Below the pieces are notes generated by a model. It was not told where the DNA came from. It was given only the letters and a program-made list of their open reading frames with translations, and ran no database searches. Below are positions 36,710 to 39,181 of a stretch of 64,000 nucleotides of DNA, one piece after another. The position numbers were made by a program, and so were the translations under genes. This DNA comes from Escherichia coli. GTDB lineage: Bacteria; Pseudomonadota; Gammaproteobacteria; Enterobacterales; Enterobacteriaceae. The stretch lies in NCBI RefSeq assembly GCF_045037415.1, contig NZ_CP173438.1; one strand, given 5' to 3'. Numbering within the stretch: position 1 is the first letter of the stretch; each line of letters starts with the position of its first letter.

Positions 36710-39181
36710 ATGAGTAAAGTCTTTATTTGCGCCGCCATTCCGGACGAACAGGCAATAAAGGAAGAAGGTGCCGTCGCTGTAGCCACTGCCATTGAAGCCG
36801 GTGATGAACGTCGCGCCCGCGCAAAATTTCACTGGCAATTCCTGGAACATTATCCGGCTGCTCAGGACTGCGCTTATAAATTTCTTGTCTGCGAGGATAA
36901 ACCCGGTATACCCCGCCCTGCCCTCGATTCCTGGGATGCTGAATATATGCAGGAAAACCGCTGGGATGAGGAGTCTGCTTCCTTTGTCCCGGTTGAGACT
37001 GAATCCGATCCGATGAACGTCACTTTTGACAAGCTGGCCCCTGAAGTACAGAACGCTGTCATGGTTAAGTTCGACACATGTGAAAACATCACCGTTGATA
37101 TGGTTATTAGCGCACAGGAATTGTTGCAGGAAGACATGGCAACATTCGACGGACATATCGTTGAAGCGTTGATGAAAATGCCAGAAGTTAACGCCATGTA
37201 TCCGGAGCTTAAGCTGCATGCCATCGGGTGGGTTAAGCATAAATGTAAGCCTGGTGCCAAATGGCCCGAAATTCAGGCAGAGATGCGCATCTGGAAAAAA
37301 CGTCGTGAAGGTGAACGCAAGGAAACCGGAAAATACACGTCTGTTGTTGATCTCGCCCGCGCCAGAGCCAATCAACAGTACACTGAAAATTCAACAGGAA
37401 AAATCAGCCCGGTCATTGCTGCCATTCATCGCGAATACAAGCAGACATGGAAAACACTGGATGACGAACTGGCCTACGCTCTCTGGCCTGGTGATGTGGA
37501 TGCCGGAAACATTGACGGCAGCATCCATCGCTGGGCAAAAAATGAAGTTATCGACAACGACCGCGAAGACTGGAAGCGTATCTCGGCATCAATGCGCAAA
37601 CAGCCTGATGCCCTTCGCTACGACCGCCAGACTATTTTTGGCCTTGTCCGTGAACGTCCGATCGACATTCACAAAGACCCTGTGGCACTGAACAAATACA
37701 TTACTGAATACCTGACTACAAAGGGCGTGTTTGAAGATGAAGGAAGAAATCAGAGCGCAACTGATACTCTCTCGTCGCCAGTACCAGAAACTGATGCAGT
37801 GGAAACGGCAATTCCGGACAACGAAAAAACCGAATGCAAAGTGGAAGTCGAACCATCTGTAGAGCGTGAGGGGCCGTTCTACTTCCTCTTCACCGACAAG
37901 GATGGCGAAAAATACGGTCGCGCAAACAAACTTTCTGGTCTGGATAAGGCGCTGGCTGCCGGGGCAACTGAAATCACGAAAGAAGAATATTTTGCCCGCA
38001 AAAACGGCACATACACAGGTTCACAACAAAATACTGATGCATCTGACACGACCGCACAACCAGACCTGGTAAAAGTTACCGCTGACGAAGTAAACAAAAT
38101 TATGCAGGCAGCCAGTATCAGCCAGCCTGACGCTAATAAGTTGCTCGCTGCATCACGTGGTGAATTTGTTGAAGGGATTAGCGACCCGAATGATCCGAAA
38201 TGGGTGAAGGGGATTGAAACCCGCGATTCTGTGCACCAGAACCAGTCAGAAACGGAACAGTACGACCAAAAAGCGGAACAAAACAGCCAAAATGCGTTAC
38301 AAAACGAGCCAGAAACGAAACAACCTGAACCAGTCGTGCAACAGGAAGAGGAAAAAGTTTGTACCGCATGCAATCAGACTGGTGGTGGTAACTGCCCTGA
38401 TTGTGGCGCAGTGATGGGTGACGCAACCTACCAGGAGACATTCAACGAAGAAAGCCAGGATGAAGCCCGGGAAAAAGATCCAGAGGAAATAGAAAATGCC
38501 GGACTCCCGAACAAGGAGTGCACCGAAGGCGATCAACATGCCAATGACAATAATGAAATAGGCGAGACAGCAAATCCCTTAATTAAGGTGAACAGTCATC
38601 GTAAAAGCACATCCACCAGCAGGTTGTGGCACCATCTGATGATTGACCTTGAAACCATGGGAAAAAATCCTGATGCCCCGATTATCTCAATAGATGCAAT
38701 ATTTTTCGATCCGCAAACCGGAGATATGGGGCCGGAATTTAGTAAGACTATCGATCTGGAAACTGCTGGCGGAGTCATTGATCGTGACGTCATTAAAAGG
38801 TGGCTGAAGCAATCACGTGAAGCGCAGTCTGCCATTATGACCGATGAAATCCCGTTAGATGATGCACTGTTACAATTGCGGGAATTTATCGACGAAAACT
38901 CCGGTGAATTTTTTGTTCAGGTCTGGGGAAATGGAGCCAACTTCGAAAACACGATTTTGCGCCGTTCATACGAACGGCAGGGGATCCCCTGCCCATGGCG
39001 TTACTACAACGATCGCGATGTACGCACAATCGTTGAGCTGGGGAAAGCCATAGACTTCGATGCCAGAACGGCTATTCCATTCGAAGGTGAGCGCCATAAT
39101 GCACTTGATGACGCCCGTTACCAGGCAAAATACGTTTCAGTTATCTGGCAAAAACTGATCCCGAATCAGGCTGATTTTTAA
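36710..39181 (+). CDS. Large early protein: EaA-like N-terminal region, acidic linker with CxxC...CxxC zinc ribbon, C-terminal DEDDh 3'-5' exonuclease domain
   Basis: 823 aa; C-terminus has MIDLETMG (motif I), VWGNGANFE (motif II) and HNALDDARY (motif III). Confidence 0.7.
   Translation: [823 protein letters not shown]

What the first reader, a model, noticed from the sequence alone, without database searches (positions are those of the whole stretch)
36710..39181. Fusion of an EaA-like early protein, zinc ribbon and C-terminal DEDDh 3'-5' exonuclease as the only nuclease in the early region
The 823-aa protein has an N-terminal region resembling EaA-type early proteins, a long acidic low-complexity linker with a CxxC-N-CxxC zinc ribbon, and a C-terminal DEDDh exonuclease domain (DLET, NGANFE, H-x4-D in HNALDDA). 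This is not the PD-(D/E)xK exonuclease of lambda Exo or RecE, and no partner annealing protein is present. The function could be DNA or RNA processing for anti-defence, or host takeover.
Basis: partly seen in the sequence, partly recalled or inferred. Interest (0 to 1): 0.5.

Follow-up and report, generated by a model that had tools for sequence, protein, structure and literature searches.

The report
RecE-like prophage protein, 3'-5' exonuclease head
This is a very common, already annotated E. coli prophage gene (the intact form of K-12 ydfE): a RecE-family early protein whose usual 5'-3' nuclease domain is replaced by a DnaQ/DexA-type 3'-5' exonuclease and which has no annealing partner; its biological role has not been tested.

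Summary
The 823-aa ORF (36710-39181, +) is real, under purifying selection, and 100% identical to RefSeq WP_016230610.1 "exonuclease" in an ompW-integrated lambdoid prophage. Related DNA is found in 4503 of 5426 complete E. coli genomes.

The C-terminal DEDDh call is correct: Pfam Rv2179c-like, E=2.5e-60, and the best solved-structure match is T4 DexA. The "EaA-like" call is wrong. Residues 1-257 are YdfE, and residues 262-625 are homologous to Rac RecE. That stretch includes the CxxC-x7-CxxC motif, which is an E. coli-lineage insert in a disordered acidic linker.

The gene is a three-module mosaic with DNA joints at about 38068 and 38583. In 80 related viral loci, all 11 with a RecE-type PD-(D/E)xK head have RecT directly downstream. 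None of the 68 with a DEDDh head has an annealase, and their flanks carry oriented Chi sites.

A 2025 Genome Research paper already reports DnaQ-like nucleases in lambdoid recombination modules and a nuclease-only "Tritos" class, and Tritos carries this gene.

This particular allele has Glu instead of the near-invariant Exo II Asp.

Most likely function: an early-lytic 3'-5' DNA-end exonuclease working with host RecBCD/RecA. That role is inferred. Known family, modest interest.

The parts
36710..39181 (+). Complete CDS, 823 aa: a YdfE-type, RecE-family protein with a DEDDh head. It is the last gene of the early-left (dicB) operon before xis and int.
   Evidence: ORF list. 100% identical to WP_016230610.1 'exonuclease'. 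PHROG 2082 matches 1-823/823. dN/dS is 0.35 against the mEp460 copy.
36710..37489 (+). N-terminal module, aa 1-260 (YdfE_N). It has a small ferredoxin-like alpha/beta domain (aa 1-95) followed by a helical domain (aa 105-205). Function unknown.
37490..37744 (+). Helical connector, aa 261-345 (YdfE_C-type). It is shared by proteins with either N-terminal type and either nuclease head.
   Evidence: phmmer domain mapping on 150 cluster representatives. AF2 pLDDT 94-98. Aligns to RecE 278-336.
37862..38020 (+). Small folded 'mid' domain, aa about 385-437 (beta-hairpin, helix, strand, helix). Present in many relatives and absent from K-12 RecE.
   Evidence: AF2 pLDDT about 95-97. It falls in a gap of the RecE alignment. 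phmmer mapping.
38068..38583 (+). Central linker module, aa 453-625, bounded by two DNA mosaic joints. It is shared at 83-87% DNA identity with both RecE-type and DEDDh-type genes.
   Evidence: blastn against L048, L020 and L040: similarity starts at 38068 and, against PD-(D/E)xK-head genes, ends at 38583. dS is 0.50 here against 0.04-0.11 in the neighbouring modules.
38141..38203 (+). Most conserved linker motif, [21 protein letters not shown] (aa 478-498). It is a candidate partner-binding peptide.
   Evidence: Conserved across distant relatives with either head (MAFFT). AF2 pLDDT about 74 within an otherwise poorly ordered region.
38360..38404 (+). CxxC-x7-CxxC motif (C551, C554, C562, C565): a putative zinc knuckle or ribbon, present only in this lineage.
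   Evidence: Present here and nearly identical in K-12 RecE 518-532. Absent from 12 of 13 distant representatives that match this region. AF2 pLDDT 33-39, so no fold is predicted.
38613..38620 (-). Chi site (5'-GCTGGTGG-3' on the minus strand) inside the gene, 30 bp from the head joint.
   Evidence: Pattern search. A Chi at this position is present in 55 of 68 DEDDh-head loci.
38630..39148 (+). DEDDh (DnaQ-like) 3'-5' exonuclease head, aa 641-813. Exo I is D646/E648 (38645-38653). Exo II is E746 (38945-38947). Exo III is H796...D801 (39095-39112).
   Evidence: Pfam PF16473, E=2.5e-60. Alignment to T4 DexA catalytic residues D7/E9/D119/H186/D191. Foldseek top hit DexA 8KEL.
38945..38947 (+). 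Codon GAA giving E746 at the Exo II metal-ligand position. This is a minority allele; most copies have GAC (Asp).
   Evidence: 112 of 114 homologues have D here. mEp460 has GAC in identical flanks. The 45-mer with GAA is in 369 of 5426 complete genomes; the 45-mer with GAC is in 3739.

Best explanation
What it is (shown). The gene is the intact form of ydfE, a RecE-family protein of lambdoid prophages, built from three exchangeable modules:
- an N-terminal YdfE-type scaffold (aa 1-452);
- a RecE-type disordered acidic linker (aa 453-625) with a conserved GISDPxDPKW peptide and a lineage-specific Cys4 insert;
- a catalytic head (aa 626-823) that is a DexA/Rv2179c-type DEDDh 3'-5' exonuclease, in place of the PD-(D/E)xK 5'-3' exonuclease of RecE.

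Context (shown). It is the last gene of the repressor-controlled early-left operon (ydfABC-dicF-dicB-ydfD-exo-xis-int). It should therefore be made on induction or infection, not in the lysogen.

How it most likely works (inferred). The head removes nucleotides from free 3' ends of DNA by two-metal catalysis. The RecE-like scaffold delivers it to the same site or partner that RecE uses, such as DNA ends or recombination intermediates. Because these phages carry no annealase and no anti-RecBCD gene but do carry oriented Chi sites, the enzyme probably assists host RecBCD/RecA-dependent recombination and replication. It could do this by trimming or blunting 3' tails, rather than forming a self-sufficient exonuclease-annealase pair.

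Caveat. The copy in this window carries Glu instead of Asp at the Exo II metal ligand and may be less active.
For: Identity and architecture:
- Pfam, NCBIfam, PHROG and PDB searches.
- Homology to RecE over aa 262-625.
- Identity with YdfE.
- AF2 models and fold searches.

Module swapping:
- All four combinations of N-terminal type and head type are found among cluster representatives.
- The DNA joints are sharp, at 38068 and 38583.

Partner rule:
- 11 of 11 PD-(D/E)xK-head loci have RecT directly downstream, overlapping the gene.
- 0 of 68 DEDDh-head loci have a RecT, Erf or Bet homologue.
- The same layout is seen in the phages mEp460 and Tritos.

DNA recombination context:
- A stand-alone 54%-identical head lies between ssb and abc2, next to erf, in phage g341c.
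- Genome Research 2025 (PMC12315714) reports DnaQ-like 3'-5' nucleases in lambdoid recombination modules. It also defines a Chi-rich, nuclease-only 'Tritos' class, and Tritos carries this gene at 91% DNA identity.

Chi sites:
- The window has 16 Chi sites against 2.7 expected.
- In the prophage, 9 are in the active orientation and 4 in the other.
- Flanks upstream of DEDDh-head genes have 49 active-orientation and 5 opposite Chi sites in 388 kb. PD-(D/E)xK/RecT loci have 1 and 0 in 65 kb.

Expression: no sigma-70-like promoter on the + strand between 34800 and 40700.
Against: - No activity, substrate or phenotype is known for this protein; literature searches for it found nothing.
- 3'-5' ssDNA exonucleases usually inhibit, not promote, homologous recombination, as PMC12315714 itself notes.
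- The founding member of the Pfam family (Rv2179c) is described as an exoribonuclease, so RNA cannot be excluded as the substrate.
- The E746 allele may be impaired.
- The locus sets are redundant E. coli prophages, so the RecT and Chi associations are not phylogenetically independent.
- 55 of the 149 minus-strand Chi sites in DEDDh loci are one conserved site inside the gene.
- The function of the scaffold is unknown even for RecE (PMC11611040).
Confidence: 0.6

Rival explanations
1. It is an anti-phage (superinfection-exclusion) exonuclease of the HREX/EcD type. The DexA-like head would degrade incoming modified (5hmC) phage DNA.
For: T4 DexA is the nearest solved structure. NAR 2025 (PMC12153337) reports that a stand-alone E. 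coli DexA homologue, EcD, cleaves 5hmC DNA and protects against T4. The gene sits next to int, where prophage accessory genes often lie.
Against: The DexA residues implicated in 5hmC recognition are not conserved: W152 aligns to Y766 and D169 to A780. EcD is a different, stand-alone protein: its primers show it starts MIDTET and ends TIPETYD, and it is not among the 120 best homologues. There is no PADLOC hit. The gene lies inside the repressed early-left operon with no own promoter-like site, so it should be silent in the lysogen.
Confidence: 0.08
2. It is an exoribonuclease, as Rv2179c is described. It would be used for RNA processing or host takeover, for example 3' trimming of operon transcripts such as the DicF precursor or of host RNAs.
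For: It belongs to Pfam family PF16473, '3'-5' exoribonuclease Rv2179c-like'. The structural neighbours include RNase T, oligoribonuclease and REXO2. DicF is encoded 650 bp upstream in the same operon.
Against: The closest characterised relative, DexA, is a DNA exonuclease. The head is fused to a RecE scaffold and is interchangeable with a DNA exonuclease head. A stand-alone copy sits between ssb and abc2, next to erf. K-12 makes DicF with ydfE disrupted (that DicF is made there is established knowledge).
Confidence: 0.12
3. It is an anti-defence nuclease. It would destroy host immune nucleic acids that have free 3' ends, such as retron msDNA or primed or signalling oligonucleotides.
For: It is an early-expressed phage nuclease with no recombination partner. 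DEDDh enzymes of the Orn/REXO2 type degrade short oligonucleotides.
Against: No direct evidence. The scaffold is shared with a bona fide recombination exonuclease. Its presence correlates with Chi-rich, annealase-less backbones, a pattern tied to recombination strategy rather than to any defence system.
Confidence: 0.08
4. In this genome it is a decaying or catalytically dead remnant. The D-to-E change at Exo II inactivates the head, and the gene persists only as prophage cargo.
For: E746 replaces an Asp found in 112 of 114 homologues. The allele is confined to 369 of 5426 genomes, all with an identical 45-mer, which is consistent with one clonal lineage. K-12 carries the gene as an IS-disrupted pseudogene.
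Against: Glu keeps the carboxylate. The ORF is intact. The comparison with mEp460 gives dN/dS 0.49 in the head and 0.35 overall. The gene family is intact in isolated phages such as mEp460, Tritos, HannyBb and PhiR42_1.
Confidence: 0.1
5. The ORF is an artefactual fusion of two genes, created by a frameshift or sequencing error.
For: None beyond the multi-domain layout and the long low-complexity linker.
Against: The same full-length ORF is found in thousands of independent assemblies and in phage genomes. A full-length PHROG profile exists. RecE has the same layout.
Confidence: 0.01

Closest known systems
RecE (exonuclease VIII) of the Rac prophage, E. coli K-12
   Same: - Large early-left operon protein encoded close to xis/int.
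- Residues 262-625 align with RecE 278-591 (38% identity overall). The alignment is near-identical over the [10 protein letters not shown] motif, the CxxC-x7-CxxC motif and the acidic tail.
- The N-terminal two thirds have unknown function in both proteins (PMC11611040).
   Different: - The catalytic head is DEDDh (predicted 3'-5') instead of PD-(D/E)xK (5'-3').
- There is no RecT downstream.
- Residues 1-260 are YdfE_N rather than the RecE N-terminus.
- The NCBIfam RecE model scores 253 bits against a cut-off of 1269.
YdfE (b1577), Qin prophage pseudogene of E. coli K-12
   Same: 98% identical over aa 1-257, with the same upstream genes ydfABC-dicF-dicB-ydfD.
   Different: The K-12 copy is truncated by IS2 after residue 257 and so lacks the connector, linker and exonuclease head. 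The window carries the intact gene.
T4 DexA (exonuclease A; PDB 8KEL) and the E. coli homologue EcD ('HREX', PMC12153337)
   Same: - Same DEDDh fold; DexA is the best solved-structure match (Foldseek E=2e-10).
- The catalytic positions align.
- tblastn with the head reaches phage dexA genes at 24-28% identity.
   Different: - About 20% identity only.
- DexA and EcD are stand-alone proteins of about 200 aa.
- The 5hmC-recognition residues W152 and D169 are not conserved (Y766, A780).
- The DexA Exo II Asp is Glu here.
Rv2179c of Mycobacterium tuberculosis (founding member of Pfam PF16473)
   Same: Full-length match to the family model (1-177/177, E=2.5e-60).
   Different: Rv2179c is a stand-alone bacterial protein described as an exoribonuclease. 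Here the domain is the C-terminal head of an 823-aa phage protein in a DNA-recombination context.
DnaQ-like nucleases of lambdoid recombination modules and the 'Tritos' functional type (Genome Research 2025, PMC12315714)
   Same: - Tritos carries this gene (91% DNA identity) in the same dicB-ydfD-exo-xis-int layout.
- The paper lists the Tritos type as nuclease only, with no annealase, SSB or anti-RecBCD, and Chi-rich.
- The window prophage fits all of these.
   Different: In the text available, the paper does not describe the RecE-scaffold/head-swap architecture or the strict pairing of RecT with the PD-(D/E)xK head. Its supplementary tables were not readable here.
P22 EaA
   Same: Only the location, in the early-left region near xis/int.
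   Different: No sequence similarity (best BLASTP E=0.8).

Membership tests
DEDDh (DnaQ-like) exonucleases / Pfam PF16473 Rv2179c-like | Significant full-length match to the family profile | tested here: met
   PF16473 over aa 641-813, model positions 1-177/177, E=2.5e-60.
DEDDh (DnaQ-like) exonucleases / Pfam PF16473 Rv2179c-like | Exo I motif D-x-E | tested here: met
   D646 and E648 align with DexA D7 and E9. MIDLET is conserved in homologues.
DEDDh (DnaQ-like) exonucleases / Pfam PF16473 Rv2179c-like | Exo II aspartate (metal ligand) | tested here: inconclusive
   This allele has E746 where DexA has D119 and 112 of 114 homologues have D. The carboxylate is kept, but the effect on activity is unknown.
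DEDDh (DnaQ-like) exonucleases / Pfam PF16473 Rv2179c-like | Exo III motif H-x4-D (the 'h' subtype) | tested here: met
   H796 and D801 align with DexA H186 and D191.
DEDDh (DnaQ-like) exonucleases / Pfam PF16473 Rv2179c-like | RNase H-like DnaQ fold | tested here: met
   AF2 pLDDT about 90 for aa 641-823. Foldseek hits are DexA, RNase T, Orn and REXO2.
DEDDh (DnaQ-like) exonucleases / Pfam PF16473 Rv2179c-like | Metal-dependent 3'-5' exonuclease activity | not testable with these tools
   Needs a biochemical assay.
RecE / exodeoxyribonuclease VIII (NCBIfam NF007259 equivalog) | Whole-protein score above the curated cut-off | tested here: not met
   253 bits against a cut-off of 1269. Only aa 246-625 match.
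RecE / exodeoxyribonuclease VIII (NCBIfam NF007259 equivalog) | C-terminal PD-(D/E)xK 5'-3' exonuclease domain | tested here: not met
   No similarity to RecE 600-866. DNA similarity to RecE-type genes stops at 38583, which is aa 625.
RecE / exodeoxyribonuclease VIII (NCBIfam NF007259 equivalog) | Homologous central region / linker | tested here: met
   aa 262-625 against RecE 278-591, E=3e-56.
Two-component phage recombinase (exonuclease + single-strand annealing protein, e.g. RecET, Red) | Adjacent annealase gene (RecT, Bet, Erf or Sak) | tested here: not met
   None is annotated in the prophage. 0 of 68 DEDDh-head loci have one, against 11 of 11 PD-(D/E)xK-head loci.
P22 EaA-like early proteins | Sequence similarity to EaA | tested here: not met
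   Best BLASTP E=0.8. No EaA-related PHROG or Pfam hit.
Zinc ribbon / zinc knuckle | Four Cys in CxxC-xn-CxxC spacing | tested here: met
   C551, C554, C562 and C565.
Zinc ribbon / zinc knuckle | Conservation of the Cys ligands across the family, and a predicted folded ribbon | tested here: not met
   The motif is absent in 12 of 13 distant representatives. AF2 pLDDT is 33-39 with no secondary structure. Metal binding itself was not testable.
HREX / EcD-type modification-dependent defence exonuclease | Conservation of the DexA 5hmC-recognition residues W152 and D169 | tested here: not met
   They align to Y766 and A780. The alignment is of low confidence around D169.
HREX / EcD-type modification-dependent defence exonuclease | Protection against 5hmC phages; expression in uninfected cells | not testable with these tools
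   The operon position argues against expression in the lysogen, but expression was not measured.
'Tritos' functional type of lambdoid phages (PMC12315714) | Nuclease present; no annealase, SSB or anti-RecBCD; four or more Chi sites in the active orientation | tested here: met
   RefSeq annotation of the identical prophage. No Gam homologue was found with a lambda Gam query, and no RecT, Bet or Erf homologue in the 68 related DEDDh-head loci. The prophage part of the window has 9 minus-strand Chi sites. SSB and Abc2 were judged absent from the annotation only.

The most novel reading that the evidence does not exclude
The RecE/YdfE N-terminal scaffold with its conserved GISDPxDPKW linker peptide may be a targeting platform. 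Lambdoid phages would mount nuclease heads of opposite polarity on it, choosing between two recombination lifestyles.
- With the PD-(D/E)xK head plus RecT, the phage is self-sufficient and avoids Chi.
- With the DEDDh head alone, the phage hands its DNA ends to host RecBCD/RecA and accumulates oriented Chi sites.

The DEDDh version would then be a dedicated helper of the RecBCD pathway, for example by blunting or trimming 3' tails so that RecBCD can load or so that invading 3' ends can prime replication. The conserved Chi site 30 bp from the head joint may itself have promoted the module exchange.
Probability: 0.2. Interest if true: 0.6.

Novelty: already known. Interest (0 to 1): 0.3.

Why it matters
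Related DNA is found in most complete E. coli genomes (4503 of 5426), and the gene is intact in isolated lambdoid phages, yet nobody has tested what it does. It pairs the unexplained N-terminal two thirds of RecE with a nuclease of the opposite polarity. It is never accompanied by an annealase in the loci examined. So it offers a natural experiment on two questions: what the RecE scaffold does, and how lambdoid phages without their own recombination system use host RecBCD and Chi. If the helper-of-RecBCD idea held, it would explain why 3'-5' exonucleases, normally anti-recombinogenic, appear in phage recombination regions. As a genome-scan finding it is a correct domain call on an already catalogued family, not a new system.

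Tried and rejected
- EaA similarity: BLASTP against P22 EaA found nothing. Rejected.
- Defence system: no PADLOC hit.
- Finding EcD (HAK9828821.1) among homologues of the head: not in the best 120. Only its primer-derived termini are known. Its relation to this head is unresolved.
Replaced by a search with linker residues 474-600. That query biases the sample toward E. coli-type linkers.
- Third type of C-terminal module (P0131 and others, phrog_7838) and headless variants (P0127): Pfam, NCBIfam and PDB gave no assignment, only a weak Rad52_Rad22 hint at E=0.078.
- Literature: 'Rv2179c + prophage', 'ydfE + Qin + exonuclease' and 'PF16473' found no papers. Searches for RecE + DEDD and for DexA + prophage returned only unrelated papers.
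- Supplementary tables of PMC12315714, which would name the Tritos nuclease type, are not held.
- Frameshift-fusion artefact: rejected.
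Full report
**Observation.** The window holds one uninterrupted ORF at 36710-39181 on the + strand. It encodes 823 aa and has an ATG preceded by GAGG.
- DLET at aa 646
- NGANFE at aa 741-746
- HNALDDA at aa 796-802
- CxxC at aa 551-554 and 562-565

The DNA is 100% identical to the RefSeq gene for WP_016230610.1, annotated 'exonuclease', in many E. coli chromosomes. Some part of it matches in 4503 of 5426 complete E. coli genomes, and 3532 genomes cover at least 80% of it. It is also present at 90-95% identity in isolated or catalogued phages: mEp460, Tritos, HannyBb, PhiR42_1 and the PPompW prophages. 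PHROG 2082 matches it end to end, 1-823/823. Against the mEp460 copy, dN/dS is 0.35 overall and below 0.5 in every module. So the ORF is a real, conserved gene and not a frameshift fusion.

**Context.** The window is 99.99% identical to a stretch of E. coli 4/1-1. It contains a lambdoid prophage integrated next to ompW. On the + strand the order is:
- a LexA-family repressor (34153-34869)
- ydfA, ydfB, ydfC
- DicF sRNA (36015-36066; Rfam 76.7 bits)
- dicB (36241-36429)
- ydfD (36426-36617)
- this gene
- xis (39246-39494) and int (39472-40602)
- then ompW

This is the early-left operon, the same arrangement as the dicB operon of the K-12 Qin prophage. In K-12 the corresponding gene is the IS2-truncated pseudogene ydfE. 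The first 257 residues are 98% identical to YdfE. No sigma-70-like promoter is found on the + strand in 34800-40700. The gene should therefore be expressed with the operon after induction, not in the lysogen; this is an inference. No annealase is annotated anywhere in the prophage. RusA and a DUF968 protein lie in the early-right region, and an HNH endonuclease lies by the terminase. 'Only nuclease' is therefore true of the early-left operon only.

**C-terminal head.** Pfam gives Rv2179c-like (PF16473) over aa 641-813, covering the whole model, with E=2.5e-60. The only sequence hit to a solved structure is T4 DexA, 8KEL, at E=0.005. An AF2 model of aa 346-823 is confident for aa 641-823 (pLDDT about 90). 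Its best Foldseek match in the PDB is DexA (E=2e-10), followed by RNase T, oligoribonuclease and REXO2. Aligned to DexA, the catalytic residues D7/E9/D119/H186/D191 correspond to D646/E648/E746/H796/D801.

One detail differs. The Exo II metal ligand is Glu in this copy, whereas 112 of 114 homologues have Asp. The codon is GAA here and GAC in mEp460, in otherwise identical flanks. The 45-mer with GAA occurs in 369 complete E. coli genomes and the one with GAC in 3739. Whether E746 lowers activity cannot be told from sequence.

**N-terminal part and linker.** P22 EaA shows no similarity (best E=0.8), so 'EaA-like' is rejected. Instead, aa 262-625 align with Rac RecE residues 278-591 (E=3e-56). 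Identity is very high over [21 protein letters not shown], over the CxxC-x7-CxxC motif and over the acidic tail, right up to the point where the RecE nuclease domain begins. The NCBIfam RecE model matches only this central part and scores far below its cut-off, 253 against 1269 bits.

AF2 on aa 1-345, with an alignment of 31 relatives, gives pLDDT 91.6. The model shows:
- a ferredoxin-like alpha/beta domain (aa 1-95)
- a helical domain (aa 105-205)
- a disordered stretch (aa 222-235)
- a helical connector (aa 245-340)

The second model shows a small, well-folded domain at about aa 385-437 and low confidence for aa 535-635, which includes the four cysteines. The cysteine motif is absent from 12 of 13 distant representatives that still match this region. 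The GISDPxDPKW peptide is conserved in all of them. The 'zinc ribbon' is thus a lineage-specific insert in a disordered acidic linker, shared with K-12 RecE. It is not a conserved domain.

**A modular family.** A full scan of 1.8 billion representative proteins with aa 1-344 found 175 relatives. I mapped seven domain queries on the best 150 hits. This showed every combination of N-terminus (YdfE-type or RecE-type) with head (DEDDh or PD-(D/E)xK). It also showed proteins with a third, unassigned C-terminal module and proteins with no recognisable head. At the DNA level the joints are sharp:
- Against a YdfE_N/PD-(D/E)xK gene (L040), similarity runs from upstream of the gene to window position 38583 (aa 625) and stops there.
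- Against RecE_N genes, similarity starts at 38068 (aa 453).
- It then continues to 38583 when the head is PD-(D/E)xK (L048), or beyond the stop codon when the head is DEDDh (L020).
- Synonymous divergence from mEp460 is 0.50 in aa 453-625 against 0.04-0.11 in the flanking modules.

The gene is therefore a three-module mosaic, typical of lambdoid phages, but with the module boundaries inside one reading frame.

**Partner rule.** I fetched 80 viral-contig loci with the linker peptide and classified them with phmmer.

| Head type | Loci | Annealase in the locus |
|---|---|---|
| DEDDh (42 YdfE_N, 22 RecE_N, 4 cut) | 68 | 0 with a RecT, RecT-like, Erf or Bet homologue |
| PD-(D/E)xK | 11 | 11 with a RecT-type gene directly downstream, overlapping the stop |

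The flanks available for the DEDDh loci had medians of 6.6 kb upstream and 1.4 kb downstream, which reaches xis/int and the prophage end. Individual contexts agree:
- RecE_N+DEDDh in a dicB-ydfD-exo-int layout and in a second layout.
- YdfE_N+PD-(D/E)xK followed by a RecT-like gene, phrog_561, E=3.5e-101.
- The phages mEp460 and Tritos.

These loci are mostly related E. coli prophages, so the counts are not independent events.

**Link to DNA recombination and to Chi.** The head has homologues in 676 phage records. They reach dexA of T4-like phages at 24-28% identity. A stand-alone copy, 54% identical, lies in Salmonella phage g341c within erf - ssb - exonuclease - abc2, a canonical recombination module.

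A Genome Research paper of 2025 (PMC12315714) makes three relevant points:
[quoted passage not shown] The authors call this curious, because such nucleases usually inhibit recombination.
- Headless 'RecE-2' proteins exist.
- There is a 'Tritos' functional type with a nuclease but no annealase, SSB or anti-RecBCD. All four of its members have at least four top-strand Chi sites (7 to 21).

Tritos carries this gene. The window fits that type. It has 16 Chi octamers against 2.7 expected. The prophage part between the lysis genes and int has 9 on the minus strand, which is the orientation recognised by RecBCD entering from the cos/lysis side. It has 4 on the plus strand and none in the late-gene region at 1-19000.

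In the 80 loci, sequence upstream of DEDDh-head genes carries 49 minus-strand and 5 plus-strand Chi sites in 388 kb. Upstream of PD-(D/E)xK/RecT genes there are 1 and 0 in 65 kb. One Chi site lies inside the gene (38613-38620, minus strand), 30 bp from the head joint, and is present in 55 of 68 DEDDh loci.

**Interpretation.**

Shown:
- The protein is a RecE-family mosaic whose head is a DexA/Rv2179c-type DEDDh exonuclease.
- It stands without an annealase.
- It occurs on Chi-rich backbones of a published phage class.

Inferred:
- It degrades DNA from free 3' ends after induction or infection.
- It is brought to its substrate by the same scaffold RecE uses.
- It serves a recombination strategy that relies on host RecBCD and RecA.

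How a 3'-5' exonuclease would help is unknown. Possible ways are blunting 3' tails so that RecBCD can load, or trimming invading 3' ends so they can prime replication. Rival readings have little or no specific support, for the following reasons:
- HREX-type defence: the residues DexA uses for 5hmC are not conserved, there is no PADLOC hit, and the gene sits in a repressed operon.
- RNA processing: suggested by the Pfam family name and the neighbouring DicF, but contradicted by the DNA-recombination contexts.
- Anti-defence: no direct evidence.
- Inactive remnant: suggested by E746, but the ORF is intact and constrained.

**Novelty.** The exact protein is in RefSeq, each domain has a database family, K-12 ydfE is its truncated form, and the phage class and the presence of DnaQ-like nucleases in lambdoid early-left regions were published in 2025. 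The finding is a correct domain call on a known but uncharacterised gene, with a wrong label for the N-terminus. The text I could read did not state three things found here:
- the in-frame three-module architecture with defined joints;
- the all-or-none pairing of RecT with the PD-(D/E)xK head;
- the Glu allele at Exo II in this lineage.

These are modest additions. I rate interest 0.3.

Noticed in passing
window 19000-40620, e.g. minus-strand sites at 19792, 24062, 25283, 26104, 26421, 28586, 33624, 38613, 39202: Chi octamers are strongly enriched: 16 in the window against 2.7 expected. In the prophage they are biased to the strand that is active for RecBCD entering from the cos/lysis side (9 against 4). 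There are none in the late-gene region at 1-19000. This fits the Chi-rich, annealase-less lambdoid class described in PMC12315714.
   Followed up: partly
window 38613-38620 (- strand); mosaic joint at 38583: A Chi site lies inside the exonuclease gene, 30 bp from the point where similarity to RecE-type (PD-(D/E)xK) genes ends. It is present in 55 of 68 DEDDh-head loci. It may have played a part in the module exchange, or it may simply be carried with the head.
   Followed up: partly
window 38945-38947: The Exo II catalytic position is Glu (GAA) in this copy, where nearly all homologues have Asp (GAC). The Glu allele is in 369 of 5426 complete E. coli genomes, all with the identical 45-mer, which suggests one clonal prophage lineage.
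   Followed up: yes
window 36015-36066 (+), 36241-36429 (+), 36426-36617 (+): DicF sRNA (Rfam 76.7 bits), dicB and ydfD lie directly upstream in the same operon, exactly as in the K-12 Qin prophage.
   Followed up: yes
related proteins P0131, P0140, P0154, P0159 (locus L015 5650-7986) and P0127 (L010 6001-8109): Some YdfE_N proteins carry a third C-terminal module (phrog_7838, labelled 'exonuclease') that Pfam, NCBIfam and PDB do not assign; there is only a weak Rad52_Rad22 hint at E=0.078. In L015 this gene is flanked by a Gam-like gene and a Sipho_Gp157 gene. P0127 has a different C-terminal region (phrog_26058, unknown function) with no recognisable nuclease. It may correspond to the headless 'RecE-2' proteins of PMC12315714.
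   Followed up: partly
window 38141-38203 (aa 478-498): The peptide [21 protein letters not shown] is the best conserved part of the otherwise disordered linker. It is conserved across distant relatives with either nuclease head, which suggests a short binding motif for an unknown partner.
   Followed up: partly
window about 23400-30400 (from the RefSeq annotation of the identical prophage): The prophage also carries tRNA-Arg and tRNA-Ile genes, a DNA methyltransferase, a QueH (epoxyqueuosine reductase) homologue, hokD and the anti-adapter IraM. A YkgJ-family gene fragment lies beside ompW, between ompW and yciC.
   Followed up: no
PMC12153337 supplementary primer table: The 'EcD' defence exonuclease of that paper starts MIDTET and ends TIPETYD. 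It is therefore a stand-alone DEDDh protein distinct from this head and from the 120 closest homologues. Its genomic context (prophage or not) was not stated in the paper.
   Followed up: partly
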